A stretch of DNA of 64,000 nucleotides from Azolla caroliniana (taxonomy: Eukaryota > Plantae > Polypodiophyta), in contig JBHGNT010000007.1 in NCBI GenBank assembly GCA_043228905.1, forward strand, positions 5,890,001 through 5,954,000, written 5' to 3'. This document shows, piece after piece, positions 12,901-58,707 of this stretch. Every line of letters starts with the position of its first letter. The stretch's first letter is position 1. Made by a program: the position numbers and the translations under genes. The notes under the pieces are model-generated. The model saw nothing but the letters and a program-made list of their open reading frames with translations, did not search any database and was not told the DNA's origin.

Positions 12901-13799
12901 TCCCCCCCTTTCCCATTTCAAATTCCATAGCCCTGCAGGCTGCAACCAAACAAGAGCAGGGTATATTGAATTCAAAGACTGAAATGGCAATACGAGCTGA
13001 GAAAACGTCATGGCAGCATCCCTAGGAGACCGTAGCACTGGACAAACCTCGAATTGATGCAGAAAATGGAAGTAAATTTCATTCAATTTGCCCCTAGGAT
13101 CGACAAGTTCATGATTTGGATATTGGAACCCTATGTGAAATCTATGCTTGAAGCCAATGACAGGACCAGGCGCAAAAGGATGCGATATCTTCAATGATCA
13201 ATGCTGCCATACATTGGACCTTGTTAGTATATTCTTTTCTCTCAGGAAATTCGTTATATTTCATTTCTTGTTGTGCTTGAAAATTTTCTAGAATTTGGTG
13301 TGCAAAGGGGATTGCAAATGATGGGTTTTGTGCATTCTAGGTTTGAGCATCAATCTTCAGATGGAGTAACTTGAACCGGTTTGAAGAGAGATCTTCTCAA
13401 TTGATCTGAATCTTTCATGGCATACTCTTTTTCCTCACTAGGTTAGGTCATGACTCATGAATGCACCTTTGGCTGGTAATGATCTCATATATATCTATAA
13501 TCTTTCTCCCACACGTTTGTAACTTTTCAAAAGATGTTGTATATTCATGAGCATTCCTGATTATTTTCATGTGTTGCTTAAGCCTACAAGAATTCTGCAT
13601 CATCATCATATGGCAGCTGGCACGTTGTCAATATCACGGGGCTTATGCCACAGTGGAACCAGAAAACCATTCGTCCATCTGTATGTATAGACATCTTGGC
13701 ATATAAAATGATTGAGCTTGAAATTTAGGTTCTGAAGTTTACTTTTCTTCAAAAACAATATCCTTGTTCACTTACAGGTCTTACTATCAAATAACCAAG

Positions 13800-16202
13800 A
13801 TGAGCTTTTCAATGTCTAGGCACTGTGCCAATGATGTCTCATCAATGTTTAGTACATCATTCCCTGTAAGGGAGACACAAGCATTGTTGTCAGAGTGTTA
13901 CATCGATGATTCTGTAGTGAAGAGTTTATGTGTAAATGGAGAATTGAAGGAGGCTGTGTTGGCCTTAGATGAGATGGAGCATCTCGGTGTTAGAGTGAGT
14001 GTAGAAACTTATCTCATCCTTTTACAACTGTGTCTCAATCTTCAGAGCCTTACTTGTGCTCGCCAAGTCCATGCTTATATAGTCAAGAATGGATTACTGC
14101 CCAACACTACCCTGGAAAATCTCCTGGTGGAAATTTATGCCAGATGTGAGAATATGGATGAAGCATGCTATGTGTTTCATGCCATAGTGGAACGCGATAT
14201 TGTATCATGGAATGTAATCATTGGGGGGTTTGCTCAACAAAGGAATTCGGAAAAGGTTTTCATTTATTTTTCAAGGATGATGCTGGAAACACAGCTCACG
14301 CCGAACACATTCACCTTTTTAAATGTTCTAAAGTTATGTGCAATTTCTCAAAACATGACCAATGGCACAATTGTCCACTCCTACATTGTAGAAACTGGGG
14401 AGGAGGAAGATTCAGATGAATATGTGGCGAATGGCCTTATTGATATGTATGTCCAATGTGGTAGCATGAGAGATGCACACAAAGTTTTCTGCACAATGTG
14501 TGAAAGGAAAAGGAATCTTGTATCATGGAACATGCTAATCTGTGGGTATGCAAAGGGTGGATGCAATGCACCTGCATTGGAACTGTTCTGGACTATGGTA
14601 GAGGAAGGAAGGAGGCCAAATCGGATAACTTTCTTAGGTGCCCTTAAAGCATGTGCTGGGTTAGGTTGCTTAGACAGTGGTAAGAAAGTGCATGAATTCC
14701 TTGCGAGATATGGACTTGAACTGACTTTGTATCTGAGCAGTGCACTTATTGATATGTATGCAAAGTGTGGAAATTCAGAGCTGGGACGCCTACTTTTTGA
14801 CAAACTTCCCGAACGCAATGTTGTGGTGTGGACGTCTATGATTTCAGGCTATCTACAGCAAGGAGAACATGAAGAAGCACTGAAGCTTTTTGGACAGATG
14901 GGAAGAGAGGGTGTGTGCCCTAACCAAGTCACGTTCATTGTGGCTCTAAAAGCTTGCTGCTCTGCTTCAGCCATAGGGTATGGCAAAAGAATACATTCAC
15001 TTCTTGCAAAAATGGAAGCACAATCAGATGTAGTTTTACAGGGCTGCCTTGTGGACATGTACACAAAATGTGGCAGCCTGGATAATGCAATGTGTGTGAG
15101 TGATGAAATGCCAATGCAAGATAGCGTGTTATGGAATGGGATGGTTGCGGGTTATCTTGCATACGAGCATCCTAAAGATGCATTAGTTCTTTTCACTAAG
15201 ATGGAGCAAAGAGGTGTACAAATTGATGAAGTTACCTTTGTATCTGTTCTCAAAGCATGTGCCTATTTGAACAAACTGGAATTTGGCAAGGAGGTCCATT
15301 TAAAGATTATCGAATCTAATGTTAATCAAAATAAGTTCTTGAACAACATGCTAGTCGATATGTACCACAAATGTGGGCAAAGGAAGGAGGCCTCTAAGGT
15401 GTTCAATGAACTTGTAGAAAGAGATGTCGTCGCATGGAATATCATTATGTGTGGACATGTGGCTGACGGAGATATGGAAGCCATGCTGATACGGCATACT
15501 GAGATGATGCATGCATCTGTATTGCCTGATGGAGTTACGTTTCTCAGCATGCTTCAAGCATGTGCTAGCTTGGGTGCGTTAGATCTTGGTAAGAGGTATC
15601 ACTCTTGTGTGCAAGAATTTGGTTACGTCATTGAACCTGCCACGAGTCTCTCAAACACATTGATCGATATGTATGCAAAGTGTGGTAGCATAGAAAAGGC
15701 GTCTTCAATATTCTTTAGCATGCCGATTCGTACATCTGTGTCGTGGAATGTGATGACCGCTGGATATGCACAACATGGGTATGCAAAGGAAGCCATTGAA
15801 TTATTCGAAGAAATGCAACTGAAAGTTGGCATGACACTTGACCATGTCACACTAGTAGCTGTGATATGTGCATGTAATTTTGCAGGTCTTGTGGATGCTG
15901 CTTACTACTACTTTGCACTCATAACACAGGTTTACAATATCGAGCCAACAGAGGAGGCCATTGCGTCCATGGTCGACCTACTGGGACGGGCAGGGCTATT
16001 GGCAGAGGCAGCTCTGTTTATGGAGGAGACAAGATCAAAAAGTTATGTGGTTGTATGGAAGGCCATGCTAGGGGCAAGCAGAATTCATAATGACGTGACT
16101 CTAGGAAAACATGCCGCTCAATCGGTTTTAGAATTGGACCCACAAGATACTGCTGCTTTTGTTCTCTTATCCAATATTTGTGTTGAATCCATTTCTTTTT
16201 GA
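13800..16202 (+). CDS. PLS-class pentatricopeptide repeat (PPR) protein with truncated E domain; probable organellar RNA-editing specificity factor
   Basis: Repeated P-L-S motifs (LIDMYAKCG, VSWNxMI, PNxVTFLxxLKAC) and an E-domain start (MVDLLGRAG...VVWKAMLGASRIH...LELDPQDTAAFVLLSNI). No DYW domain. First ATG is at 13800; an acceptor-like TTACAG at 13772-13777 suggests upstream exon(s). Confidence 0.93.
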   Translation: MSFSMSRHCANDVSSMFSTSFPVRETQALLSECYIDDSVVKSLCVNGELKEAVLALDEMEHLGVRVSVETYLILLQLCLNLQSLTCARQVHAYIVKNGLLPNTTLENLLVEIYARCENMDEACYVFHAIVERDIVSWNVIIGGFAQQRNSEKVFIYFSRMMLETQLTPNTFTFLNVLKLCAISQNMTNGTIVHSYIVETGEEEDSDEYVANGLIDMYVQCGSMRDAHKVFCTMCERKRNLVSWNMLICGYAKGGCNAPALELFWTMVEEGRRPNRITFLGALKACAGLGCLDSGKKVHEFLARYGLELTLYLSSALIDMYAKCGNSELGRLLFDKLPERNVVVWTSMISGYLQQGEHEEALKLFGQMGREGVCPNQVTFIVALKACCSASAIGYGKRIHSLLAKMEAQSDVVLQGCLVDMYTKCGSLDNAMCVSDEMPMQDSVLWNGMVAGYLAYEHPKDALVLFTKMEQRGVQIDEVTFVSVLKACAYLNKLEFGKEVHLKIIESNVNQNKFLNNMLVDMYHKCGQRKEASKVFNELVERDVVAWNIIMCGHVADGDMEAMLIRHTEMMHASVLPDGVTFLSMLQACASLGALDLGKRYHSCVQEFGYVIEPATSLSNTLIDMYAKCGSIEKASSIFFSMPIRTSVSWNVMTAGYAQHGYAKEAIELFEEMQLKVGMTLDHVTLVAVICACNFAGLVDAAYYYFALITQVYNIEPTEEAIASMVDLLGRAGLLAEAALFMEETRSKSYVVVWKAMLGASRIHNDVTLGKHAAQSVLELDPQDTAAFVLLSNICVESISF

Positions 16203-29854: not shown

Positions 29855-30360
29855 ACCGACCCTTGATTTGAACCCACGACCTCAACTTCGAAACGAGAGG
29901 TTCTCCACCCAATGAGCTAGTCTTCTCTACTTGATTGTCTTATTTTCTCACTCTCTCTTGATTCCTTGATTCCCTTTTGTTTTCCTTTCCCCTCTTTTTA
30001 TAAGTATTTCCATGCATATGGTAATGTCATGCATGAGTTACATCTGATGCATGATCGCCATTTGGCGCACATGCATTGCATGTGATGCATGATAGCCATC
30101 ATACTCATTTGAGCTCCTATGTATTGGGATAAGTATAATGATGGATATAACTCTAAAACAAATAACCTAGCTTAGTGGTGTATAGTTTGTGCTTGATATA
30201 CAAGGTTGAGGGTTCAAGTCCCTCAATTTTACTTAATACAATATTTAAGTTTATTCTTATATAGTGAAGCACATTCTTGACAACATTTTAAAAAACAAAT
30301 AGCCTACCCTAGTGGTATATACATTGTGCTTGGTTTATAAGGTTGTGGGTTCAAGTGTTT
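29855..30360. repeat. Cluster of three degenerate tRNA-derived (SINE-head-like) motifs
   Basis: Minus strand ~29925-29860: TAGCTCATTGG...GAGGTCGTGGGTTCAAATC. Plus strand ~30167-30224: TAGCTTAGTGG...GGTTGAGGGTTCAAGTCCC, with a tandem copy at ~30303-30357. No intact acceptor stems. Confidence 0.6.
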
Positions 30361-30699
30361 GAAATATTATTGAATTCAATATTTAAATTTATTTTTATAT
30401 CGTGAAGCAAATCCTTCATGACATCGCGCCTTATTTCCTTCGACTATCCCTTGATCACTCTTGCATTAGTCTTTTCTAGGACTTCATCCCTTCTTGGTCG
30501 AGCTTTCGACCTTTGGTCCATCTTCTATCCTTAGTTTCTCAGTCCTTCACATGACTCCTACTTGGGAAGCATGTTTGATATTCTTTGTCTCGAGTTGATC
30601 TTCCTTGCTTGCCTTGGTTGGGAGACACTTGATTCCCAACCCTTGCTTAGTCTCACCCTTTAAAGGTTCTCGCATCCCTTTTTCCTCGTTTGCACCGAG

Positions 30700-33816: not shown

Positions 33817-36479
33817 GCAGCTGCACCCGTGTACTCTGCTGCCTCTTTGCGTGACTATGAGTTGCTTTTTGTTGCTCTAAGATATGGTTCCGTTGCCTAG
33901 GGAGAAGACAAACCCTGATGTTGATCGCTTGTCAGCTTTGTAGCCAACCCAGTCGCATCGATGTATCCTTTGGGTCAAATCGGTGTGGCCGATTTGTAGA
34001 GAATACCCATCATAGATCTTTTAAATTAGTGACTTCAGCAATGTTTTCTGGTTCATAAACAATTACCACCATCATAAAGGCATAGTCGTAATGCCATCTA
34101 GTCGTTATAGCCAAATCGACTAACTAGATTCTTCTCACAAGTGGAGTGTCCGATTTTTTCATTTGTTGTGGCAATGGCTTTCTGTACACCAAGTGTCCCC
34201 ATAATAGGCACATCAAAGCCATCAAGCTCAGTGTCGAGTGAGTGAGTTGATTCATTGTCGTCAGATTTCTTGTCGTCATATTACATCATTTTTTCCTTTC
34301 CTTTGTTTGAATTCGAACTTGGCCGTGACATGCTTTTCTCGCTTGAAGGCTCATGTGGTCCGCTCAATCTGGTTGAGATCGGACCTTAGCCGATCATTGT
34401 CCTCGGTGTCGTCAAGGTCGACTGGAAATGGTTCGAGTGGAGTTGGCTTTGGTTTGTACCAAGATGTTGATTCGTCAAAGACTACGTCCCGACTGACGCG
34501 AACCTTCTGAGTTGAGGGGTTAAGCATTTGTACCCTTTTTTCTCTAGTGTGCATCCTATGAGGATACATTTCTCCGACTTGGGATCTAGCTTTTTCCACT
34601 TTTCATCGAGAATGTGCACGTATGCAATAGAGCCGAATATCCTTATATGGGATAGATCCGACTTCTTTCCATAGTACTTCTCGTGTGGGGTGACCTCGTG
34701 CACATTGGATATTGTACATCTGTTCCTTTGGTAGATGGTTGGGCATGTTGCTTCGGCCCAATATGACTTCAACATGTGCTTCTCGTTCATCATGGCCCTT
34801 GCTACTTCGAGGATGTGCCAATTTTTGCATTCGGCCACTCTGTTTTCTCGCCAAATTCCTTCTTTACGAGGATGGACTATAAATTCATCCGAGAAGTACT
34901 CCTTTCCTCTGTCTGAATGAAGGCATCGAACATGTCGACTGGTTGCCTTTTCGACTTCGTTTTTAAATTTATGGAAGTGCGACAAGACTTCATTGTTTTG
35001 CCACTTAGGATAAATCTAGGTGTGGCTAGGGAAATCGTCGATGAATGTGATGTAGTATCACCATCCACTGAATCTGGCCATTTGAGCCAGTTCCCACACA
35101 TCTAAATGTATTACATCTAGGATCCCTTGGCGTACGTTCCTCTCTTTCGGGAACGGTTGTGGATGTTGCTTGCCGAATTGGCAAGCGTCACACACTCTTG
35201 CAATCTCCTTCTCATCAAAGGTCAGGAGTCTCATGACAACTCCTTTCGAATGCATTCCTTTAAGCTTCTGAAGATTGATGTGACCAATTCTTTTGTGCCA
35301 CAATTCAATGTTGGCGTCAGCTTTATGGACTTTTGCGAACATGGCAGATTTTATCTCATTTGACTTGAGGATAAACATTCGGCCTTCCCTTCGAACACGA
35401 GCGATAATTAGGCCTTCCTTTTCAATAAAGTAGCTTCCGTGATTGAATTGGACTTGCATGCCTTGCTCCACGATTTGGTTGACTGAGACCAGTTCGTTAT
35501 AGTTGGAACATGCAAGACGTTCTTCATGTACGTTTGTTCACCATCTTTTCCGAATGGGACATTGCCGACATACTGGATGGGGTGGATTGTGTCATCCCCT
35601 ACTTCCACATTGCTGGATCGCTCAGGCTCTCCCAAGTCTCAAAACCATTCTTGGTGAGATGTCATATGGTTCAAGGTGCCTGAGTCGACAAACCATACAT
35701 CTTCTGTGTTGGACGTACTTGGACGTACTTGTCGGGCTGGAAGCCATCATAGAATTCACTCTATGCCGCATCACTAACATTCCGCTAGGATCGTCGTAGT
35801 CAGAGTTTGAGGCAAAGGTGGTAACTCACTTTTCTTCTTCTGACACTCTGCCTCATGGTGGCCGAATTTGCCACAGTATCCCCATTGGACAGAGTTGTTT
35901 TGTCGGCTTCTTTTGTTCGACACGTCTTGCTGGTAGTAGAAGTTGTGCTCATGGGATTGCCCTTGGTTGTGTCGGCCTTGGACGAATCGGCCTCTTCTTT
36001 CACGACCGTGTCCCCTCCCTCCATCCGAGTTCGAATAGAGCATGTGTCCTTCTTGTACATTGCCCCTCGTTCAGACATGATTTTCTTCGACCAGTATTAT
36101 CGACTGGAGGTCGAAGGAGGAGGGTGGATTCTCCCTTACGAGGACGGCCACCTTATGGCACCGAACCAAGGTGCTAGGCCACTGAGGCATATTTGCACCA
36201 TTTCGTCATCGTCAAGGTTGACATTAATCGACCTGAGGGAGTGACACAACTCCTTGATCTCCAAGGTGTAGCTACTGATTGACATATCCCTTTGTTGGAT
36301 ATTGTTCAATTCTTGACGAGGTTGAAGTTTTCGTGCGGTTGTGTTGGCCATGAATATCTTTTTGAGGTTCCCCCACGGCTCCTTCGTGATGGAAACTGAG
36401 GCCGTCAATGTGAAAACATCAACAACACCTTTAGATGAAGATCACCAAGTTCACAAGAGAAAGCAAGATCAAAGAATAG

Positions 36480-36510
<31 letters not shown>

Positions 36511-38770
36511 CCAAGAGGCACACAATGTAACAATTCTTATTCCGTGGTTACAAAAATGGAGGCAACAACTCTCTAACAATAGCAACAACTTTTTGAGCGA
36601 GGTTACAAAGCTCGTTATATATTAACTGGGCTAGGGAAACTGCCCTTTGTCATATTTACACAAATGTCCTAAACCTAGAATATCCAAGGGACGGTGTGAA
36701 TATGACCATTATATGCCCATTATTCAAAGGGATCGGAATCGATCTACCAAAAACACTTGGTCATCCCATCTGTGACATTATTGGCTGTAGATATCTTCTC
36801 GAGGCCGATTTTCCTTGGAATGACACAATCCCGAACAAAGTGATATCAAACGTCGATATGGTTGAAGGCATTGTGATGAACCGGAGTTTTTGATAGAGCA
36901 ACAACACCCTCACTGTCGATGTAGACAAATGGAGCCGAGTCGGAGTTGACTTGTCGAAACGTGTGTGCCAGCTGACCGAGCTATAAAGCCTCTTTCGCCG
37001 CATCGGACACGGCTAGATATTCGGCCTTGGTTGTTGATGTGGGAGTGCACTCCTGAAGTTTCGATTTCCACGAGATTGCTACATTGCCAAATTTGAAGCA
37101 ATATCCAGTTGTTGACTTTTGACTGTCCACAAAGCTGGCAAAGTCAGAGTTGGTATAATCGACTATGCCTCATGCATTATCTGGGCCGAATAGGATGCCA
37201 TAGTCTTTTGTGCCCACGAGGTATCTGAACACATGCTTAACTGTGTTCCAATGCGGTTGACCGGGATTGTGCATAAATTGTCTGACGACTTTGATAATGT
37301 GAGCAATATCATGTTGTGTCGCGACCATCACGTACATCAAGGAGCCGATTGCCGGTGCATACGGTACCGACTTCATAACTTCCCCTTTCGACCAAATGTC
37401 AGGCAGTCTAAGCGAAGATTAATCAGGAACGGGGTCAAAGTAGATTTGGCCAATTGCATGTTAAAGCATTCTAAGACATGTTCAATATAGTCGGATTCAA
37501 ACAACTGTCTTTGAGTTCGATTTAGACTTATCTTCATCTCGAGAATGTGTTTTTCCGGACCACGGTCCTTCATGGCAAACTTCAACGGCAGTTGCTGAAC
37601 AAGTTCGGTGAGATCTCTGGCATGTCGTCCGGAGAGTAGCATGTCGTCCACGTAGATGATGAGGAAGATGGGAGACCCATCTCGAGCTATTTTCGTGAAG
37701 AGGCAATGGTCCTCATCACTCTTAGAGAAGCCAACCGACTGGATAAAGTCGTCGAACTTCTTGTACCACTGCCATGGTGCCTGCTTGAGGCCATAGAGAC
37801 TCTTCATGAGTTGACACACTAGATGTTCTTGGCCTGCTACAACGAAGACTTTCAGTTGTTCCATTTAGATTTCCTCTTCTAGGTTGCCATGGAGGAATGT
37901 TGTCTTCGCATCTAACTATATAAGCTCCAAATCTTCAGTTGCCACGACGCCGAGCATGAAGCGAAGGGTTGTCATTTTCACCACTGGTTAAAAGATCTCG
38001 TCGAAGTCGATGCCATATTCGTATCGGAAACCCTTTGCTAAGAGTCTAGCCTTGAATTTTGGGGTGGTCGAATCATACGTCTCTTTTAATATGTAGATCC
38101 ACTTGCATTAGGTGTCGGAGTCAGATGATCTAAAGCTGAATCGTTTGGCTGTGTCGAGTCGGTGGTAGAGGATTCGACTACCCGTGAAGCCGATCTTGTG
38201 TTATGGGCTGACTTCGAAAAAAGTTGTCCTTCGGACTTCAATAGGCCTTTCGATCGTTTTATGCGTAACCAACTCATTGAATGCTACATCCGAACTTTGG
38301 ACAATCTGTTTGTGCTCGGGGTCCCAGAGTTGGTATCCGATCTCGTCGTCTGATCCATAGCCAAGGAAAATACATTTCTTGGACCATGGTTCTAATTTTC
38401 GGCGGTGGTCTTTCGGTATGAGGGCATACGCCTCGCATCCGAAAATCCTTAGCTTGTCATAATTCGGCTTCCTCCCGCTCCATAATTCCTGAGTGTCATG
38501 AAGACATACATCTTGGCTTATCATGACATTCATCTTGGCGAACCAGGAATCGAACCCATAACCTCTTGGTTTACATATTGTACTTTAACCATTGTAATAA
38601 CATATGTGAGATGTAATCATAATAATTATATGTTTAGTTATTACGAGATATTTAGAACGTTCTAGATTATTCTAGAATGTTCTTGAATATTTCATGATTA
38701 TATTTATTATTATTATTATTCATAAATATCTAAAATATTCTAGAACATTCTAGAATACTCCATAAGGGCC

Positions 38771-38778
38771 TATAAATA
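38771..38778 (+). promoter_or_regulatory. TATA box of the chromovirus 5' LTR
   Basis: TATAAATA lies 33 bp upstream of the 11-mer (38804) complementary to the PBS, consistent with a start site there. Confidence 0.75.
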
Positions 38779-39127
38779 AGAGTCCATACACTCATCACAA
38801 CTCATTCGGTTCAACACCAGTCTTTAGCCCTTAGCCTACTCCTTGTAATCTTCTTTCTCATAATATAATCGCATTCCCATTTCTTATCTCTCACTTATAC
38901 TTTTCTCTCTCTCGCACTCTCTCCCTCTTTCACTCTCTTTCTATCACTATCGCTATCTCTACCGCTCTCGCCATCTCTATCGTTATCGTTATCTCTATCG
39001 CCATCGCTCTCTCTCTCTGCTTCCAACTCAAGAGTCACGACAGTTTGAACCGAATATTTCTTTTCCCTTTCTCCAATAACTCTAGCAAGCTTTCTTCTTT
39101 ATCCTTCTTTCTTTTTCCCCCGCGGTT

Positions 39128-40255
39128 ATGGAGTCGGTCAGCAAGCAAGAGTATATGCGTGTCCTTTCGGAGCTCGATATGCTCACCACTAAGTTTGTGG
39201 CATTAGAGCAAGAAAATCAAAGGCTACTCGGGGATCTTCAACAAGTCAGTACTGAGAAAGCTCATCAATATGAGGAGTTATCACAACGGGTTCATCAACT
39301 TGAGGCTACTATATTAACATTACGAGAACAAGCGGCGGGGGTTCAAAACTCCCCAAGGGAACCAAAGATTAGCCTCCCTGCCAAGTTTGATGGTACCAGA
39401 TCTCTCTTTCGAGGTTTCCTGAATCAAGTTCGTTTGGTGATTCAGTTACATCCCAATCGGTATCCAACTGATGCTGCCCGTGTGGGATTAATAGGAACCT
39501 TGCTAAGCGGTACAACGTTAGCATGGTTTGCACCACTTCTTGAGAAGAAATCACCATTACTGGAGGATTTCGAGGCATTCGTTAAGGAGTTTCAAGCTAG
39601 TTTTGGAGATATGGATAGCACTAGGACTGCAATAAACAAGATTCGAAGACTCCGACAAGGAGATCGTCCCGCTTCAGCTTATGCCGCAGATTTCCGTCTC
39701 TTGGCATGCGACATCCCTTGGGATGAGGCAGCCTTAATGGATCAATTCCGTCAGGGTTTGCGTAACGATGTCAAAGATCTTCTTCTTACTTTCCATGAAG
39801 ATCCAAAGTCTCTTACTGAAGTTATTAGCCGAGCTGTGCGATGTGATAATCGCCTATTTGAGCGACGTTCTGAACGTCAACAAATGTTACGCCGCCAACC
39901 GGAACAGACATACGCTTCTATAGTCGCCACACCGCCACAAGGTTCTAGACCTGTTACGAGGGATGGTCCCACTCCGATGGAAATAGAGTCGACACAACGT
40001 CGAGGGCCCTTATCAGATGCTGAGAAACAACGACGTCGGGCGCATCGCCTATGCCTCTACTGTGGTGGTCCAGGACATATAGCTGTGAATTGTCCACATA
40101 AACCCAGGCGTCAAGTTTACCAAGTAAGTGCACATGACAACCCTACATCAAGTTCTACTATCACTTCTAATAACTTAAGTACTAAGCCTACTAGCCCATG
40201 CCATGAGAATAGATTTGATGTCTTGAGCCAATTAGAGGATGTGTTAAACGAATAA
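39128..40255 (+). CDS. gag: Gag (375 aa; coiled coil, capsid, CCHC knuckle)
   Basis: PAKFDG...FLNQ, LRQG...YAADFR, GPTPMEI and CLYCGGPGHIAVNC; uninterrupted ORF. Confidence 0.95.
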   Translation: MESVSKQEYMRVLSELDMLTTKFVALEQENQRLLGDLQQVSTEKAHQYEELSQRVHQLEATILTLREQAAGVQNSPREPKISLPAKFDGTRSLFRGFLNQVRLVIQLHPNRYPTDAARVGLIGTLLSGTTLAWFAPLLEKKSPLLEDFEAFVKEFQASFGDMDSTRTAINKIRRLRQGDRPASAYAADFRLLACDIPWDEAALMDQFRQGLRNDVKDLLLTFHEDPKSLTEVISRAVRCDNRLFERRSERQQMLRRQPEQTYASIVATPPQGSRPVTRDGPTPMEIESTQRRGPLSDAEKQRRRAHRLCLYCGGPGHIAVNCPHKPRRQVYQVSAHDNPTSSSTITSNNLSTKPTSPCHENRFDVLSQLEDVLNE

Positions 40256-43200
40256 GTCCGGCCAAAATAGGAGCCATTTGGTTGGACCATCCTAGTTATG
40301 TAGAGTCAGTACCTAGTTGTGGTTCCATTTCATCAAATCAAGTTAGTAGAGTTTTTTCTGCACAAGTCGAGCTTAGCACATCTACAGGTCATCGCGCCCT
40401 AGCCTCTGCCCTCCTAGATTCCGGAGCCAATTCTTGTTTCATGGATCGCGAGTTTGCATTGACTCAAAACATCATCTTGAAAAAACTCCCAAACCCAGTA
40501 GCTGTAGGAGTCATCGATGGTCGCCCTATAGCATCAGGAGATATAGTCGAAGAGTCTGAACCAATTCGTGTAGTCCTAGGTAATTTGGCTAGTGTCATCT
40601 CATTTAACATCATTAGTAGTCCGGAGCACTCTCTAGTTCTTGGTCTTCCTTGGTTTGAGTTACATAACCCAACCATTGATTGGAGAAAAATTGAAGAGGT
40701 CACCGTACAATCCAAGTCTCTTGAAGCTCCAACTAAGGATCTAGGATCCCCCACAATTTCAACAATCTCTATACATCAATTACGAGAGGATGGAAGAAAG
40801 GAAGACATGATGGTATTTGCGGTTTTAGCAACTCCCTCATCTAGCTCACAAGAATTGGGGGTCCAACTACCAAAGAAGCACATAGAATTCTCCGATGTGT
40901 TCGATAAGGTGAAGGCTAATAGACTACCAGAGCATCGACCATATGATTGCCCAATTGATTTGCAGCCAGGAAAAGAGCCTCCATGGGGACCAATTTATAA
41001 TCTTTCGCCCACGGAGTTAGAGGTTCTTCGAGAATATATCAATGAGAACTTGGCAAATGGTTTTATCCAACATTCAAAATCTCCTGCTGGTGCACCCATC
41101 TTTTTCGTTAAGAAGAAAGATGGTACGCTTCGTATGGTCGTGGATTATCGAGGCTTGAATAAAGTGACCGTTAGAAACCGATATGCTCTCCCATTGATCT
41201 CAAGCCTTCTAGAACGCCTCAGTGAAGCAAAGTATTTCATGAAGTTAGATCTTCGAGGTGCCTACAACCTTGTTCGAATTCGTCCTGGGGATGAATGGAA
41301 GACGGCGTTCCGCACTCGCTATGGTCATTTTGAGTACACAGTGATGCCTTTTGGCCTCACGAATGCACCAGCAGTCTTCCAACATATGGCGAATGATATT
41401 TTTCGAGACTTCCTCGATATCTTCATCATTGTTTACCTGGATGATATCTTGATCTACTCAAAAACTCAAGAAGAACATGATATACATGTTCGCCAAGTTT
41501 TGCAACGGCTACGAGAGTATGGTCTCTATGCAAAATTGGAGAAGTGTAGTTTCGACCAACGTCAAGTGGAGTTTTTGGGGTACATAGTCTCTTCAAATGG
41601 CATCTCTATGGATCCATCAAAGGTTCAAACAATTTTGGATTGGCAAACACCACAGTCCGTGCGAGATGTGCAATGTTTTTTGGGGTTCGCAAACTTTTAT
41701 CGCAAGTTCATCAAAGACTATTCAAAAATTGTGTTGCCCCTCACTCAACTGACGCACAAGAATCGATCATTTGTATGGAGTATAGATGCGAACTCTGCAT
41801 TTGAGGGTTTAAAGCAAGCATTTACATCCGCACCAATCTTAATCCATGTCGATCCAATGAGGCGCTTTATACTTGAAGCTGATGCATCGGATTTCGCACT
41901 CGGAAGTGTACTATCCCAAATTGGTGATGATGGTGAACTGCACCCGGTGGCTTTTCACTCACGAAAATTTGAAGCCGCAGAAATCAATTATGAGATTCAC
42001 GACAAAGAGCTTCTTGCCATTGTGGATTCTTTTCAACAATGGCGTCATTTTCTGGAGGGTTCTTCTCAGCAGATTATTGTCTACAATGATCATAAAAATC
42101 TAACATACTTTCAAAGTGCTCGAGTCTTGAATCGACGACAAGCTCGTTGGGTGCAGTTCTTAACTCGTTTCGATTTTGTAATTCTATATCGCCCTGGGAT
42201 GCAACAAGGAAAAGCAGATGCTTTATCTAGACGTTCGTATATGGAACTTCAACCTGGAGAGGCCGCATTTGAAAGCCAAAAGCAAATCCTCTTAGGTCCT
42301 GATCGTCTACGAATAATGGCAATGCATACCATCAACACACCGGGAGATTCAAGGCTTCTTGATTCCATTCGTGAGCAGATTGCGACTGATGCGTTCGCCC
42401 AAGAGGTTTTGAGCCATATTATCCCAAATCGTGCATCTAGCTCCCAAACTCAAAATCCTCGTCTAGACTACACCCAGTTTAGTTGGCATGATGGGTTACT
42501 TTTTCGACAAACTCTCTTGTATGTGCCTGACGGTCCTTCTCGACTCAAAGTCATGCAACAATGTCATGACACACCAATGGCGGGACACTTCGGCATCCAC
42601 AAGACTTTTGAGTTGATTTCTCGCCGATATTGGTGGCCACGGCTTCGCCATTTTGTTACGGATTATGTTCGTAGCTGTGATACATGTTGCCGATCAAAAA
42701 AACCTCGACATCATCCATATGGCTTATTACAGCCAATGCCTATTCCGGAGAGCCCATGGAAATCTATTTCCTTGGACTTTATTACGGATCTTCCACCTTC
42801 CAAGGGATTTGATTCGATTCTCACTGTTGTCGATCGTTTTACGAAGATGGCACATTTCCTTCCATGCACAAAGACCATTACTAGTCAAGAGACAGCTGAT
42901 TTACTCATGCGGGAGGTGTTTCGCCATCATGGTCTTCCGGATGATATTATCAGTGATCGGGGTCCCCAATTCATCTCGAAATTTTGGCGGCACATGTTCA
43001 GACTCTTACATACTTCTTGTAAACTCTCTTCCGGCTACCATCCAGAGACTAATGGGCAGAGTGAGCGCACCAACCAAACAGTCGAGCAATATCTACGTTG
43101 TTTTGTCAACTATCAACAAGATGATTGGGTGGATTTACTACCTTTGGCAGAATTTGCTTATAACAACTCCGAGCATTCTTCTACTGGATATTCCCCATTT

Positions 43201-43881
43201 TTTGCAAACATTGGGTACCATCCTCGTTGGACGATGCTTGAACATCCTGAACTCCCAAAAAACCCAACTGCTGAAGATCGGCTCACTCGACTCCAAGAAG
43301 TTCAGGATATGCTTTTGCATCATTTATGTGAAGCCCAAAACACTCAAAAGAAGATTGCTGACCGTCATCGGCGTGATTCATCGACTACATTTCAAGTAGG
43401 CGATCGTGTATGGCTCTTACAAGGTAGCATTAAAACGACCCGACCTTGCTACAAATTGGATTATCAACGTTTTGGCCCATATGTCATAAGTGGTAAGATC
43501 AATGATGTGACATTTCGTCTTGATCTTCCTCCTCATATGCGTCTTCACCCGGTCTTCCATGTTTCACTTTTGGAGCCTTACACAACGAGCTCTATTCCGG
43601 GTCGTGTTACACCTCCCCCACCTCCAATTGACGTTTCCAATGGCTCTGAATATGAGGTTGCCGCTATCCTCGACTCCAAGATCATTCGCAACAAACTATA
43701 CTACTTGGTTGATTGGTTAGGCTATACACCTAATGATCGAACATGGGAGCCTGCCGAACATCTTGCCAATGCCTCCGACATGGTTGTTGCATTTCACAAC
43801 CAATATCCTCATAAACCAAGTCTGAACTCTTTTCTTCCGACTCGTGCAACTCGTCATCGAAAAGGGGGGATAATGTCATGA
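40219..43881 (+). CDS. pol: Pol (PR-RT-RNase H-integrase-chromodomain) in the -1 frame relative to gag
   Basis: LLDSGA, MPFGLTNAPA, YLDDILIY, DASDFALG, the HHCC motif and SDRGPQF, GPY, and chromodomain EYEVAAILDS...YLVDWLGY...TWEP. The frame is open from 40219 and overlaps the end of gag; its stop lies inside the 3' LTR. Confidence 0.96.
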   Translation, partial: CLEPIRGCVKRISPAKIGAIWLDHPSYVESVPSCGSISSNQVSRVFSAQVELSTSTGHRALASALLDSGANSCFMDREFALTQNIILKKLPNPVAVGVIDGRPIASGDIVEESEPIRVVLGNLASVISFNIISSPEHSLVLGLPWFELHNPTIDWRKIEEVTVQSKSLEAPTKDLGSPTISTISIHQLREDGRKEDMMVFAVLATPSSSSQELGVQLPKKHIEFSDVFDKVKANRLPEHRPYDCPIDLQPGKEPPWGPIYNLSPTELEVLREYINENLANGFIQHSKSPAGAPIFFVKKKDGTLRMVVDYRGLNKVTVRNRYALPLISSLLERLSEAKYFMKLDLRGAYNLVRIRPGDEWKTAFRTRYGHFEYTVMPFGLTNAPAVFQHMANDIFRDFLDIFIIVYLDDILIYSKTQEEHDIHVRQVLQRLREYGLYAKLEKCSFDQRQVEFLGYIVSSNGISMDPSKVQTILDWQTPQSVRDVQCFLGFANFYRKFIKDYSKIVLPLTQLTHKNRSFVWSIDANSAFEGLKQAFTSAPILIHVDPMRRFILEADASDFALGSVLSQIGDDGELHPVAFHSRKFEAAEINYEIHDKELLAIVDSFQQWRHFLEGSSQQIIVYNDHKNLTYFQSARVLNRRQARWVQFLTRFDFVILYRPGMQQGKADALSRRSYMELQPGEAAFESQKQILLGPDRLRIMAMHTINTPGDSRLLDSIREQIATDAFAQEVLSHIIPNRASSSQTQNPRLDYTQFSWHDGLLFRQTLLYVPDGPSRLKVMQQCHDTPMAGHFGIHKTFELISRRYWWPRLRHFVTDYVRSCDTCCRSKKPRHHPYGLLQPMPIPESPWKSISLDFITDLPPSKGFDSILTVVDRFTKMAHFLPCTKTITSQETADLLMREVFRHHGLPDDIISDRGPQFISKFWRHMFRLLHTSCKLSSGYHPETNGQSERTNQTVEQYLRCFVNYQQDDWVDLLPLAEFAYNNSEHSSTGYSPFFANIGYHPRWTMLEHPELPKNPTAEDRLTRLQEVQDMLLHHLCEAQNTQKKIADRHRRDSSTTFQVGDRVWLLQGSIKTTRPCYKLDYQRFGPYVISGKINDVTFRLDLPPHMRLHPVFHVSLLEPYTTSSIPGRVTPPPPPIDVSNGSEYEVAAILDSKIIRNKLYYLVDWLGYTPNDRTWEPAEHLANASDMVVAFHNQYPHKPSLNSFLPTRATRHRKGGIMS

Positions 43882-45135
43882 AGACATACATCTTGGCTTA
43901 TCATGACATTCATCTTGGCGAACCAGGAATCGAACCCATAACCTCTTGGTTTACATATTGTACTTTAACCATTGTAATAACATATGTGAGATGTAATCAT
44001 AATAATTATATGTTTAGTTATTACGAGATATTTAGAACATTCTAGATTATTCTAGAATGTTCTTGAATATTTCATGATTATATTTATTATTATTATTATT
44101 CATAAATATCTAAAATATTCTAGAACATTCTAGAATACTCCATAAGGGCCTATAAATAAGAGTCCATACACTCATCACAACTCATTCGGTTCAACACCAG
44201 TCTTTAGCCCTTAGCCTACTCCTTGTAATCTTCTTTCTCATAATATAATCGCATTCCCATTTCTTATCTCTCACTTATACTTTTCTCTCTCTCGCACTCT
44301 CTCCCTCTTTCACTCTCTTTCTATCACTATCGCTATCTCTACCGCTCTCGCCATCTCTATCGTTATCGTTATCTCTATCGCCATCGCTCTCTCTCTCTGC
44401 TTCCTACTCAAGAGTCACGACAGTTATTCATAAATATAATCATGAAATATTCAAGAACATTCTAGAATAATCTAGAATGTTCTAAATATCTCGTAATAAC
44501 TAAACATATAATTATTATGATTACATCTCACATATGTTATTACAATGGTTAAAGTACAATATGTAAACCAAGAGGTTATGGGTTCGATTCCTGGTTCGCC
44601 AAGATGAATGTCATGATAAGCCAAGATGTATGTCTTCATGACACTGAGGTACTTGAAGTCCTGGAGGCCTACTCGGTGACATGTTAATTATGTATACTGC
44701 CGTAAGTAAGGCCTCTACCCAAAAGCCATCTGATAGTGCGGAGTGGTAGAGCATGGATAATATCCGTTCTCGAATTGTCCGATTCATCCGCTTGATAATT
44801 CCGTTCTACTCCGGACTATAGGGTGTCATATATTCATGACGATTGCCACATTGTCGGCAAAATTTGTTGAATTCTTCAAACTTAAACTCTCCCCCGTTGT
44901 CAGTGCGAAGGCATTTCAGCTTTCGACCAGATTGGTTCTCTACCATGGAAAGCCATTCTTGGAAGATCGAGAATACTTTATCTTTGGTTCTTGCTAGGTA
45001 AGCCCACACTTTCCTGGTCGAGTCGTCAATGAAACTGACGAAGTAGGAGGTGCCACCAAGGGACTGATGTGGCATCGGGCCACCGACGTTCGAATGGACT
45101 AAATCAAGGGAACTTTAATCTCATGGTGATGCCAT

Positions 45136-45954
45136 TGTCGTAAAAGGATATGACCAGCTGGTGCGACCGCGATTCCATAGTTGCCTCAACTACAACCACG
45201 TATCTCGACTTGGTTTGATGACCCAACACTCCTTGGAGATCCACTTGATTTGACTCATTGGAGTTTATTTACATTCTAGACTCAAGCTTCTTTAGTATTA
45301 TTGTTATTAGGGATTTATATGCATTATTTTATCGAAACAAATTGTATAGTCGAGACTCGAAACCATGTAATGTATTGCATGTGCACCATATAATGCAGAT
45401 GCAAAGCTTCTCTACATGTGTGCCACATGGGCCACATGTTTTTTTCATAACGCACATGCACAAACTTCTCTAGGGGGTGCCACATGGCCCACATGTAAAT
45501 CCATCCATTTAGTATAAGAGGGGAGGATTATTGTCATGATGGGGGGGGGGGGGGGGGGGGGGCAATCAAAGAGACATATTTTGTAAAGGGTTTTTTCTTC
45601 TCGAGGAAATAGAGATTTTCTATTTGAATTCTTTCTTCTACCGTGCTTGAGGGGTAGTTGTGTATGGTGTTTTATTCATGACACTCAATTATGGCGTCCG
45701 TTTTCGACATTCTATAGCTTGTTGGAAAGCTCTTTCTAAGGGCTTTCCAATCTGTGTCTGCACACTTAATTTTGTTACATCAGTGGAATGATACAAGGAT
45801 GTTCGTGTTCACGGGTAAGGTTGCAAGCTACTTGTGGCTATTGGGATACTTTCAGCTCGACTTCCTACTCTTCTCTTCCTTCTTCTTATTTTCACTCTCC
45901 TGGTTCAAAACCCTAGTGGTTCCGCCTGGACACGCCAATTTCTTTGACATGACA
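45136..45954. mobile_element. Probable solo LTR (819 bp) inserted in integrase of Copia B
   Basis: TGTCGT...ATGACA termini with 4-bp flanks CCAT/CCGT. It separates the integrase zinc finger (CEH..YGKQ) from LDLVHS. It contains a TATA-like motif and a long G run. Confidence 0.65.
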
Positions 45955-48794
45955 CCGTCACTGGTGTGAGGTTGCGACTTGTTTGCCATAGTACTGAGAA
46001 TGCTCACAGAACTGGTGATCCGAAAGGAGAGTGTGGGGATGTATTTGGCTCTAGATAAATGCATTATGCTGGCCTTGCTAAGGTGTCCAAGTCATCCATG
46101 CCATAATGATGACACATGAATATCAACCATGAACAAGTCACCCTCTTTGAGTGTGACATATAACGGGTACAATGAATGTATGTTTGATCCTCTAGAAAGC
46201 AAGAGGTTCCCTCTGTAGAGTGTCCACCCTCCTGATGAGAAGCCAGCACGGATGTCGTCTTCATCAAGTTGTCTGATTGAGATCAATGGTCTTGAGAGCT
46301 CAGGAACGTGTAAGACATTGTGTAGTACTAATGTAGAACCACCTGGGACGTTGAGTTCTACACTGCTGATTCCTATAATAACGCAGTGATGCGAGTTTCC
46401 GACTCGTACTGAGTCGGAGTGTTCGGGCCGAATATTGCCGAAACTGAGATCTATGAGGGGTCACGTGGTAGGATGCACCCGAATCCAAGAGTCATGTGCT
46501 CGATTCCTCACTTGTAAGTAAAACTTCTTATTCGACTAGGTTTTCAATGGATAGTATGTTCGGGTCTTTCGACAATACTTCAGTAGTGGAACCCACGTAA
46601 TTGACCTCCTCATGCCGGCCACTCTTCTAATCAGCTCGATGAGCTTTATCGTTCTTAGCTTTGAGTGCACGGCAATCGGTTTTGATGTGCCCAAGTTTCT
46701 TGCAATAGTTGCAGATTCGATTATCCCAGGACTTGCTCCAATTTCGGTGATTGTTCGTATGTCGAGAAGAACTTCTTCCTCGATTGTTTGGCCGGTTGGC
46801 CGAACCTTGTGCTACATATGCTTCATCTGTCGAATCTTTTGCAAACGATTTCCTCCGAGCTACTTCAGTCAATATTGCGCTCGAAACTTCGGAGTACTTC
46901 ACAGCGGCAATAGAAGCATTGCACACGCTTGTGACAAAAGTTTCCCATGATGGGGGCAGACTACTACATGAGCAACATTGCTTTCAGTTCATCTTTGATT
47001 GTTACCCCTGAGCCGAAATCTGGGAGCCTAAACTTTCATACTCGTTCCGGTGTGCCTGAACCGAGTCGGATTCTTTCATCCGCAGGTTGTAGACGCGCCG
47101 AATCAAATATATCTTTGTGGCGACAACCTTTTCTCATACATGTCCGACATTGTTTTCCACAGTTGAAACGCAGTCGAACACGATTGCATTGTGAAGTACA
47201 CTGACAGCGAAAGGTGCATCCGAATGGTGGATTAGACAATTTTATTGAGTTTCGTCCACTCATTTGGCTTGATTCCTTCTAGAGGGTTTTCATTCTCGAT
47301 TGGATCTATTTGACCCTTGACTATCAGATAGTCTTGCATCTGCTCCTTCCAGAAATTGAAGTTCGATCCGTCGAACTTCCTTAGACTCATCTTTGATGAG
47401 CCGGATGTCGATGCCATCTGTGTTGGCTTGTTAGACTCTGTTCGGAGTTGACTACAAATGGTGGTGGAATGCAACCAATTGGCTCACCTGATATTGTTCT
47501 AGTCGGATTCGAACACAAGTCGAGCCGGCTTCCCGAGTTGGATCTGTCGATTTGATTTCAATGCCAATTTCGAGATGTCGATCACAGGTTTTGTGTTGAT
47601 TATACAGGCCAATCCTGCTTCGGGTGACTACAACGATGAGAGGGACGAAGCTGACTGGTCCTCCCGAATGTCGTTCAACCGAATGAAGTACGGAGTGGGG
47701 TTGTTCCCTAGGGCTAGATCTGCTTTGAGAGGTTACAACAAATGAGTAGATAGTGTCTAATCTAGTAAAGCACGATCGAGGCTGATTGAACAGAGATTCC
47801 ACTCTGAGCGGCTGCAATCACAGAAGCAAGATGTTGCCGATTGGCTTACCTTAAGAGTGATTTAGCTTAGTAGAGTGCAAATCATCTTTTTTCTTTCTCT
47901 TCTCAAGATGAGATCTTGGACTCAGGTTCTTCAAGGGAGAGGAAGCAAGAATGTTGTTGAAGACTGATGACAGCTGGCAGCGAGTTGAAGAACCTTCGCT
48001 TTAATACCAGATGTTGGAAATTGAGGCCGTTAGTGCGGAAACATCAACAACAACTTTAGATGAAAATCACCAAGTTCACAAGAGAAAGCAAGATCAAAGA
48101 ACAGAATGAGAGAGAGAAACACCAAGAGGCACACAATGTAACAGTTCTTATGAATCAGTGGTTACAACAATGGAGGCAACAACTCTCTAACAATAGTAGC
48201 AACTTTTTGAGCTAGGTTACAAAGCCCGTTATATACTAACTGGACTTGAGTAACTGCCCTTTGACATATTTACACAAATGTCCTAAACCTAGATTGTCCA
48301 AGGGACGGTGTGAATACGGCCATTATATGCCCATATTCGACACTTCGGCGTTTTGACCTCTCGGATGTAGCCGAGCATGTGATCGTGAACACATGATGTA
48401 AGGCAATACAACACATGACTTGACGCTTGCTCCGATGTTGGGTGGTCGGCGTGTGTTGGGTTGGGTTGCGTTTTTTGTGCTCCCTTGATATAACTCCAAT
48501 GGCCTTGACCGACAAGGTATTGGTGCATCTTGTACTCCCAAGATGCGAAGTTGTTTCTATCCAGCTTTTCGTTGGGGAGAGAGTTGCCCATCTTAGTGTT
48601 CATGATGGTCGACTTGTGATTTTTTCTTCTCTGTGATACGAACTATGCAAGGTTGCTGCTACAGTGATCAGTCAGTTCTTCATGAACATCAGCATAGGCA
48701 CAACTCACGCGGATGGGCCTAGATCAACCTACTAATCGCTCTGATACCACGTAAAGAATTGGATGTGATTTTGTGGAGCGGAAAATGTGTGTAT

Positions 48795-57504: not shown

Positions 57505-58419
57505 CTATAAGACCGATTTAAGATGAGTCTTGACGTTCAGCAATTCATAGTCAGTTATTAGGATCTCCTTGAACCTCACATTGTCATCCATAACATCACT
57601 ACATACTTCAAACAAGTGTGTCAATAACATCGTCTGGCTAGAGAGTCTCTCACATACTTGCAATAGATTCGCTGCTTCGGATCGCGTCAACATTGAGATC
57701 CTCGCCGCAATCTGTTTGAATCGGCATTGAAGCTCTTCGTATGCCCTTCCGACCACAATCATCACGAGCTTCAGGCTCTCCTTCACTAAAAGATGATCTA
57801 CAAATGAGTCCATGGCCATCGATGCTTCCTGAAGGAACTCGTGGAGGCACATAAATTGCGTGACGAAATTCGCTGTGGGCAATGCCACGATGTGGTCGGA
57901 TTCGCAATCCGACCTAACAGTATCACAGTTGAAGAAAAGCCCTAACATTCTTGAGGTTTGGATCCATTTCTCCACAAAGCCGGCGTACCAACGGACCCAA
58001 CCCGATGCCGACCAAGAAAGAGCGGAATCCCTGTCTTTGAAATTCGACATATTCAGGCAATTCCGGCCGCTACTGAGCTCTCTATGGAAGCTGATCTGAT
58101 CTTGGAACATGAAGCCTCCTTCACATAGGCATCTATGGATGAGGATGAGGCATTTTAGGGCGACGACCCAGCTATGTGTCTTGCTCAGCCTTCCCATAAT
58201 CATCTGCACGCAGCGGGAAACGCGCACTCGGGATTGCGACCCGATGCCGACGATGATTTGAGCGACCGCCGCTTCATCGGGGAGCATTTCTTGGTCATGA
58301 TTGGTTGCGCGAAGCACAGGGACAAGGGCAAGGCTTACCTGATTGTGTTGTGATTTGGCGATGGCAGAGGACCATTGATCTTGCACGCGATTCACGTGCC
58401 GCTTGATCCAGCGTGCCAT
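57505..58419 (-). CDS. ANTH/ENTH-domain putative clathrin assembly protein (short, intronless PICALM-like type)
   Basis: VLRATNHD...P, RLSKTHSWVVALKCLILIHR, GRNCLNMSNFKD and SGWVRWYA; 304-aa uninterrupted ORF. Confidence 0.9.
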   Translation of the reverse strand: MARWIKRHVNRVQDQWSSAIAKSQHNQVSLALVPVLRATNHDQEMLPDEAAVAQIIVGIGSQSRVRVSRCVQMIMGRLSKTHSWVVALKCLILIHRCLCEGGFMFQDQISFHRELSSGRNCLNMSNFKDRDSALSWSASGWVRWYAGFVEKWIQTSRMLGLFFNCDTVRSDCESDHIVALPTANFVTQFMCLHEFLQEASMAMDSFVDHLLVKESLKLVMIVVGRAYEELQCRFKQIAARISMLTRSEAANLLQVCERLSSQTMLLTHLFEVCSDVMDDNVRFKEILITDYELLNVKTHLKSVL

Positions 58420-58707
58420 GATGTTTGGGGTCTGCTAGACACTCAGGACTCCGTCTGTCTGTCTGTCTGTCTGTCTGTCTTGTCTGAGTCTCTTCTCGGA
58501 TGGGCAGCTATGGCGGCTAGAAATTTGTTTCTCATTGCTTCTCAGGTCAAATCTGCCCCTACCCCATACATACATACATACATACATACATACCCCATCC
58601 CATGTATGTATGTATGGGCCATGGCTTTACACTCACATACATACATATACTTGCTCTCCTATAATATACAATATGTACCTATTGTCAACACTCTGCTCTC
58701 CAACTGC

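What the first reader, a model, noticed from the sequence alone, without database searches (positions are those of the whole stretch)
38804..39055. tRNA-independent self-priming signature: 11-nt PBS complementary to the element's own 5' end
Seen: there is no TGG-starting tRNA PBS after the 5' LTR. Instead TTGAACCGAAT (39045-39055) is the exact reverse complement of ATTCGGTTCAA (38804-38814), 33 bp downstream of the TATA box. Established: S. pombe Tf1 primes reverse transcription from the first 11 nt of its own mRNA annealed to the PBS and cut by RNase H, and similar signatures are described for Tf1/sushi-type chromoviruses. Inference: this is an intact, recently mobile plant element using that mechanism, which makes it a tractable model.
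Basis: partly seen in the sequence, partly recalled or inferred. Interest (0 to 1): 0.75.

Follow-up and report, generated by a model that had tools for sequence, protein, structure and literature searches.

The report
Self-priming fern retrotransposon, predicted kind
A young jumping gene in a fern genome has no tRNA docking site; the 11 bases after its left repeat pair with the predicted start of its own RNA, and relatives keep this pairing with different letters, so it likely primes its own copying as yeast Tf1 does, a route already predicted in print for related moss elements.

Summary
Observation confirmed. 39045-39055 is the exact complement of 38804-38814, starts 2 nt after the LTR's CA, and its partner lies 33 nt after TATAAA at a C|A start-type step; chance 25 of 20,000 shuffles. 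The element is a 6.15-kb Ty3/gypsy chromovirus of the Tf1/sushi group (Tcn1-like), LTRs 547/549 identical, in a fern. The decisive test was met: 13 distinct primer/PBS pairs from 20 elements average 10.2 of 11 Watson-Crick pairs with their own partner against 4.4 with others, with changes on both sides at all 11 positions (11 of the 20 were found by requiring complementarity). Start site and cleavage are untested; no RNA run held it. Not new in kind: Neumann 2019 predicts self-priming for 83% of 1,500 plant Tcn1 elements, and this scan noted it before in moss genomes. Modest additions: a fern host (a 2010 PCR screen found none in 26 ferns and horsetails), no leader-side duplex of the Tf1 'pretzel' in this branch, and a right end made of an inverted U3 piece flanked by the target duplication.

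The parts
38489..38493 (.). left copy of the 5-bp target-site duplication (CTGAG)
   Evidence: empty-site joint 38488->44644 with 5 letters fitting either side in one contig each of X1 and X12
38494..39042 (+). 5' LTR (TG...CA, 549 nt)
38530..38599 (-). antisense A-box/B-box-like (tRNA-promoter-like) module in U3; side finding
   Evidence: same spacing (43 nt) in L001 and L002; no Rfam tRNA match
38665..38760 (.). imperfect AT-rich palindrome in U3
   Evidence: 78% over 100 nt, plus/minus
38771..38777 (+). TATA box (TATAAAT)
   Evidence: invariant in family contigs at 5% threshold
38804..38814 (+). predicted self-primer, first 11 nt of the predicted transcript (start of R)
   Evidence: start site itself untested
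38816..38822 (+). post-primer stretch that pairs weakly with the U5 end (2 + 3 bp), predicted
   Evidence: MFE and pair probabilities 0.46-0.59
39043..39044 (+). GT spacer between LTR end and PBS
   Evidence: GT in most relatives
39045..39055 (+). primer-binding site complementary to the self-primer
39129..40255 (+). gag (Retrotrans_gag, Ty3_capsid, DUF4939, zf-CCHC)
40219..43881 (+). pol in another frame, overlapping gag by 37 nt: protease, RT, RNase H, integrase, chromodomain
43859..43873 (+). polypurine tract
   Evidence: sequence
43874..44422 (+). 3' LTR
44423..44437 (+). junction: GT spacer letters plus a 14-nt piece identical to plus-strand U3 38716-38729
44430..44643 (-). inverted copy of the first 214 nt of U3, forming the element's right end
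   Evidence: 214/214 identical to the 3' LTR, 213/214 to the 5' LTR
44644..44648 (.). right copy of the target-site duplication (CTGAG)

Best explanation
This is a recently inserted Tf1/sushi-group (Tcn1-like) Ty3/gypsy chromovirus in a fern whose primer-binding site is complementary to an 11-nt stretch of its own LTR, and it likely starts reverse transcription without a tRNA: transcription is predicted to start at 38804, the RNA's first 11 nt would fold onto the PBS, the element's RNase H would cut after base 11 as in Tf1, and RT would extend the freed 3' end, copying the GT spacer and U5-R. Shown: the complementarity, its position, its covariation across families, the absence of a TGG site, the domain set. 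Inferred from homology: start site, cleavage, extension.
For: Exact 11-bp complement, 2 nt after the LTR end, chance 25 of 20,000. In a fold of the predicted 5' RNA the 11 pairs have probabilities 0.79-1.0. Covariation: 13 distinct pairs from 20 elements, own partner 10.2 of 11 WC pairs, other partners 4.4 (3 of 156 reach 10, all close variants); every one of the 11 positions shows at least two WC pair types; L083 and L100 add two more distinct pairs. Unselected set (LTR end fixed by an LTR pair): 0 of 13 have TGG; 7 of 13 have an unbroken 9-12-bp helix, 5 of these 7 start 33-35 nt after a TATA-like motif and the other two 38-40 and 50-52 nt after; the helix starts at a pyrimidine|A step in 6 of the 7, the plant start-site rule (PMC1832190 passages). 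Within the family, contigs of four runs vary at five places between TATA and primer but at none in 38792-38826. RT-RNase H tree puts the element with a Mucoromycota element and fish/frog elements (UFBoot 94), the group for which self-priming is described (bioRxiv 2022.12.06.519325 passages). RNase H acidic motifs are present.
Against: No start site was mapped and no cleavage shown; the whole 337-nt fold is no more stable than shuffles (z -0.5). The PBS-adjacent leader duplex that the Tf1 three-duplex structure is said to require is absent here and in 5 of 5 other near-branch elements. Five of the 13 unselected relatives (L032 group, one lineage) show only 8 WC + 1 GU pairs near U5 with no TATA within 60 nt, and L005 is decayed. 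11 of the 20 elements in the covariation count were found by requiring complementarity (11 of 52 loci scanned), and families are related, so the counts are not independent. One uncompensated G>A variant inside the PBS reaches 12% in run X13. No host tRNA set was available for a direct comparison.
Confidence: 0.88

Rival explanations
1. A host tRNA or tRNA fragment primes at this site, and the LTR match is incidental (the primer 11-mer contains a T-loop-like GGTTCAA).
For: The T-loop-like heptamer is in the sequence (recalled motif); tRNA halves prime some Copia lineages (PMC6317226); host tRNAs could not be screened (no genome held).
Against: A mature tRNA needs TGG, absent at offsets 0-5. Relatives change the tract freely, losing the T-loop-like motif, while keeping the pairing with their own LTR. 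Half-tRNA priming was found only in Copia lineages.
Confidence: 0.04
2. The duplex is real and conserved but serves another purpose (packaging, dimerisation or translation control), or the primer comes in trans from a second RNA copy or a short LTR transcript instead of a fold-back and cut in cis.
For: Sequence cannot tell cis from trans; the accessory leader duplex of Tf1 is missing in this branch; start-site choice can vary in Tf2 (PMC5341516 passages).
Against: The 3' arm sits at a fixed 2 nt (0 in two elements) from the LTR end, where minus-strand synthesis must start, and no other primer site exists; the unprocessed right end of this copy keeps CA-GT, as expected if synthesis starts at the spacer (inference).
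Confidence: 0.07
3. Chance complementarity.
For: The same 11-mer occurs by chance at 9444; the scans also returned 10-14-nt chance-like matches without the geometry.
Against: 25 of 20,000 shuffles; repeated with different letters and the same geometry in relatives.
Confidence: 0.01

Closest known systems
Plant chromovirus|Tcn1 clade (REXdb; Neumann et al. 2019, PMC6317226: passages, supplement 5)
   Same: No tRNA PBS, self-priming predicted (83% of 1,500 elements), 5-bp TSD, size 5.5-9.4 kb, overlapping gag and pol frames, chromodomain, kinship to fungal/vertebrate Tf1/sushi elements.
   Different: Reported only from mosses and club-mosses; the word 'fern' does not occur in the main text. The paper used one-element complementarity, not covariation, in the passages read. 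No named Tcn1 reference was in my tree; its element table and FASTA supplements were too large to read.
Tf1/Tf2 of Schizosaccharomyces pombe, with Tj1 and Tosmo1-3 (PMC7175516, PMC4600332, bioRxiv 2022.12.06.519325; passages)
   Same: 11-nt 5' RNA end complementary to the PBS just after the LTR's CA; chromovirus; RNase H present.
   Different: Mechanism is proven only there. Tf1 has a single ORF (recalled) and needs a three-duplex 'pretzel'; here only the central duplex and a 2+3-bp U5 stub are predicted, with no leader duplex.
SM-Tcn1 of Selaginella and the PCR survey of Novikova et al. 2010 (PMC2864245; passages)
   Same: Two ORFs, TG...CA LTRs, no tRNA PBS, pyrimidine-rich leader.
   Different: No self-primer was found for SM-Tcn1, and Tcn1-like clones were not recovered from 26 ferns and horsetails; this element is in a fern and has a clear self-primer.
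Plant TAR-lineage Copia elements (PMC6317226)
   Same: Self-priming predicted (89% of 203).
   Different: Copia superfamily; unrelated domain order.

Membership tests
Ty3/gypsy chromovirus | LTRs, gag, PR-RT-RH-IN order, C-terminal chromodomain | tested here: met
Tf1/sushi group | RT groups with fungal and vertebrate chromoviruses | tested here: met
   UFBoot 94 clade with Cunninghamella, Dendrobates, Hemibagrus, Pungitius proteins; no seed-plant chromovirus or Tf1 itself was in the tree
Tf1/sushi group | PBS complementary to own LTR, at least 10 nt, starting 0-5 nt after the LTR; no tRNA PBS | tested here: met
Tf1/sushi group | complementarity kept through compensatory changes | tested here: met
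Tf1-type self-priming | self-primer is the 5' end of the transcript | tested here: inconclusive
   position fits (33 nt after TATAAA, C|A step) but no start site was mapped
Tf1-type self-priming | RNase H cleavage after base 11 and extension by RT | not testable with these tools
   RNase H motifs present only
Tf1-type self-priming | three-duplex 'pretzel': U5-side duplex | tested here: inconclusive
   2+3-bp stub in the MFE of 4 of 4 undecayed near relatives, probabilities 0.42-0.79; not better than shuffles as a free duplex
Tf1-type self-priming | three-duplex 'pretzel': leader-side duplex | tested here: not met
   window 198 of 200 shuffles as good; 32-88 of 100 with longer windows; present in 5-6 of 7 sister-clade families
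REXdb chromovirus|Tcn1 | clusters with named Tcn1 references (P. patens, S. moellendorffii, C. neoformans) | not tested
   no named reference sequence was available from the tools
REXdb chromovirus|Tcn1 | 5-bp TSD, 5.5-9.4 kb, overlapping gag/pol frames | tested here: met
REXdb chromovirus|Tcn1 | type I chromodomain with aromatic cage | tested here: inconclusive
   Pfam Chromo 2e-11; aromatic residues at the usual places read by eye in the translation; cage positions recalled, not aligned to HP1
tRNA-primed plant chromoviruses (Tekay, Reina, Galadriel, CRM) | TGG-starting PBS complementary to a tRNA 3' end | tested here: not met

The most novel reading that the evidence does not exclude
A fern-inhabiting branch of the Tf1/sushi group self-primes with a stripped-down RNA: only the primer:PBS helix and a short U5 stub, held open by a G-poor, unstructured loop and leader, without the leader duplex that Tf1 needs; the branch also extends the group to ferns, where it was thought absent.
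Probability: 0.45. Interest if true: 0.5.

Novelty: new member of a known kind. Interest (0 to 1): 0.33.

Why it matters
Self-primed reverse transcription is proven only in fission yeast and predicted elsewhere mostly from single-element complementarity. This family gives covariation support in a vascular plant, extends the Tcn1-like group to ferns, and suggests that the three-duplex structure is not universal, which a short in vitro assay could settle. It does not open a new mechanism.

Tried and rejected
No whole genome held, so no copy census and no host tRNA set. No RNA holder listed; the four-run lays used contigs, which cannot show a start site. ARAGORN found no tRNA in the window. Viral contigs gave 0 loci with the single query and 3 distant loci with the alignment. 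Cluster look-up gave no organism names for the 10 nearest clusters. Three primary Tf1 papers were not held; Tf1 mechanism details come from passages in reviews and later papers. Rfam gave nothing at gathering level for the LTR or four relatives; the hits are AT-rich hairpin noise, so the U3 module is not filed as a tRNA. Dropped before the unselected count: L006, L040, L045 (LTR pairs cut short), L030, L048, L068 (short or weak repeats) and contigs whose repeat is only a terminal assembly overlap. Chance-like complements without CA-GT or TATA geometry (L011, L027, L031, L065, L076, L094, L103, L107, L111) were not counted. No X XXY YYZ slippery site was found around the gag/pol overlap. In one search the L083 loop was sliced one base off; one search has the correct slice with the same result. 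Literature searches for Tcn1 in ferns and for tRNA-promoter modules in LTRs returned no describing paper in the listings; the library lacks most subscription papers and genome-paper supplements were not checked.

Full report
1. Observation. The two 11-mers are at the stated coordinates and are exact reverse complements; pairing stops on both sides. The LTR pair is 38494-39042 and 43874-44422, 547 of 549 identical, TG...CA. After the 5' LTR come GT and then the 11-mer; there is no TGG at offsets 0-5. TATAAA begins at 38771, 33 nt before 38804, and 38803/38804 is C|A, the commonest start-site step in Arabidopsis, with the TATA box expected at -50 to -20 (PMC1832190, passages). In 20,000 dinucleotide shuffles of the LTR, 25 held an 11-nt complement anywhere.

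2. The element. Gag (39129-40255) and Pol (40219-43881) are open and overlap in different frames; Pfam gives RT, RNase H, integrase and chromodomain, and the catalytic motifs are present. A polypurine tract precedes the 3' LTR. The 5-bp duplication CTGAG flanks 38494-44643, and one contig each in runs X1 and X12 joins 38488 to 44644 across it; these may be other copies of the surrounding Copia element or an empty allele. Two LTR mismatches give about 0.14-0.28 million years with recalled plant rates. The family is present in runs labelled with four to five organisms and in leaf and plant metagenomes; contig depth suggests many copies but is not a count. The host is a fern: the PPR gene's best named full-length matches are Adiantum and Ceratopteris at 53-55% against at most 43% for the named lycophyte, gymnosperm and moss proteins, and the only species-named ANTH hits are Adiantum. 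The genus was not determined. 'Intact' holds for the reading frames only: Pol has 12 private differences at columns invariant in 6 close relatives, and the right end is aberrant (see noticed in passing).

3. Lineage. Among the 120 best Pol relatives, the named ones are fungal, fish, frog, algal and amoebozoan; none is a seed-plant element. In an RT-RNase H tree of 42 sequences (chosen from the 110, plus L083 and L100) the window element lies in a clade with L001, L002, L005 and L083 (UFBoot 100), next to L003/L004/L007 (76), inside a group with Cunninghamella and three vertebrate proteins (94). That is the Tf1/sushi, or fungi/vertebrates, cluster as described in bioRxiv 2022.12.06.519325 (passages). 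No named Tcn1, Tf1 or seed-plant reference was in the tree, so 'Tcn1-like' rests on this kinship plus the matching feature list in supplement 5 of PMC6317226.

4. Covariation. Of 82 loci had an LTR pair that fixed the LTR end independently. With the window element, 0 of 13 have TGG; 7 of 13 have an unbroken 9-12-bp helix between the tract after the LTR and the LTR itself; 5 of these start 33-35 nt after a TATA-like motif, the others 38-40 and 50-52; L005 is a decayed case at 32 nt; five elements of one distant lineage do not fit. A scan of 52 further loci that required complementarity found the same layout in 11, among them the closest relatives L001, L002 and L004, and a scan of 54 loci found two more, L083 and L100. 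The 20 elements give 13 distinct pairs: 10.2 of 11 Watson-Crick pairs with the own partner, 4.4 with others, and at least two pair types at each of the 11 positions; L002 carries a matched one-base insertion in both arms. Selection and relatedness inflate these numbers, but the unselected set shows the same layout. Within the family, contigs from four runs show 29 variant rows at 5% or more in 38740-39110: five between TATA and primer, none in 38792-38826, and one uncompensated G>A in the PBS at up to 12%.

5. RNA structure. Folding from 38804 puts the 11-bp helix in the MFE and centroid with pair probabilities 0.79-1.0; the whole fold is not unusual (z -0.5) because the loop is G-poor (8% G). 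Tf1 is said to need two further duplexes, each between a PBS-adjacent stretch and the LTR. On the U5 side, the window, L001, L002 and L004 share a predicted 2+3 to 2+5-bp stub with one change on both sides in L004, which would explain the conserved CACCAGT after the primer. On the leader side nothing better than shuffles exists in the window, L001, L002, L004, L005 or L083 (lowest 7 of 100), whereas sister-clade families L009, L010, L012, L018 and L021 have one (0-3 of 100 at 25 nt), L063 weakly (12 of 100) and L071 not. This is a prediction from folding energies and a small sample.

6. Mechanism. Shown: complementarity, position, covariation, no tRNA site, RNase H domain. Inferred from Tf1 (PMC7175516, passage: first 11 bases pair with the PBS, RNase H cuts between 11 and 12): start at 38804, cleavage, extension across GT into U5-R. 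The CA-GT kept at the unprocessed right end of this copy is consistent with synthesis starting at the spacer but is not specific to self-priming. Confidence 0.88; rivals are a different role or trans priming (0.07), a tRNA fragment (0.04) and chance (0.01).

7. Prior art. Earlier notes of this scan report the same layout in moss genomes (e1-7226285, e1-7364707); I had reached the reading and the paper before that look-up. New here, within the searches named under Tried and rejected: a fern host, where Novikova et al. 2010 recovered no Tcn1-like clones from 26 ferns and horsetails (passages) and Neumann's main text does not mention ferns; covariation evidence; the missing leader duplex. Lineage tables in fern genome supplements, which I did not see, may already list Tcn1.

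8. Verdict. Real feature, likely Tf1-type self-priming, a new member of a known and already predicted kind. Interest 0.33. The most novel reading, a pretzel-less minimal variant in ferns, has probability about 0.45 and would deserve about 0.5.

Noticed in passing
window 44423-44648: The element ends in U3 on both sides: after the 3' LTR come the spacer letters GT, a 14-nt plus-strand U3 piece and an inverted 214-nt U3 start, then the TSD. Fits a plus-strand DNA that snapped back at the U3 palindrome, was opened in the loop, joined to an unprocessed U5 end and integrated with two U3 ends (inference). The empty-site joint supports the outer ends; the inner junction was not seen among the joints shown, so an assembly error is not excluded.
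   Followed up: partly
window 38530-38599 minus strand; L001 and L002 U3: Antisense A-box/B-box-like module with identical 43-nt spacing in 3 of 14 U3 regions scanned (the three closest families); elsewhere in the 64-kb window the pattern hits only the other LTR copies and 30210. Possible Pol III promoter or TFIIIC site pointing out of the LTR. Patterns were partly drawn from these sequences, and Rfam sees no tRNA.
   Followed up: partly
window 30150-30430: Two 137-nt-spaced repeats with tRNA-promoter-like A and B boxes, SINE-like.
   Followed up: no
L002 about 4270-4300; L004 about 1965-1985: An inverted copy of the primer region lies in U3 just upstream of the predicted start (about -13.5 kcal/mol); it could mask the primer copy at the RNA's 3' end or in upstream-started transcripts. 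Absent in the window element.
   Followed up: partly
L032, L037, L046, L058, L061: One lineage has no TGG and only an 8-9-bp (about 13 with a bulge) match about 90 nt inside U5, without a TATA box nearby: priming route unclear.
   Followed up: no
L006 about 410-520: A 13-nt primer/PBS pair appears interrupted by an insertion of about 35 nt inside the PBS (read by eye).
   Followed up: no
window about 34400-38490 and 44650-46200, minus strand: The element sits inside a decayed Copia element; further Copia pieces lie to the left.
   Followed up: partly
window 13722-16202 (+) and 57505-58434 (-): PLS-class PPR gene and ANTH-domain gene; best named orthologue-level hits are ferns (53-55% and 43%).
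   Followed up: partly
L083-L159: Many bacterial and archaeal genome records carry contigs of eukaryotic Ty3/gypsy elements, probably binning contamination.
   Followed up: no
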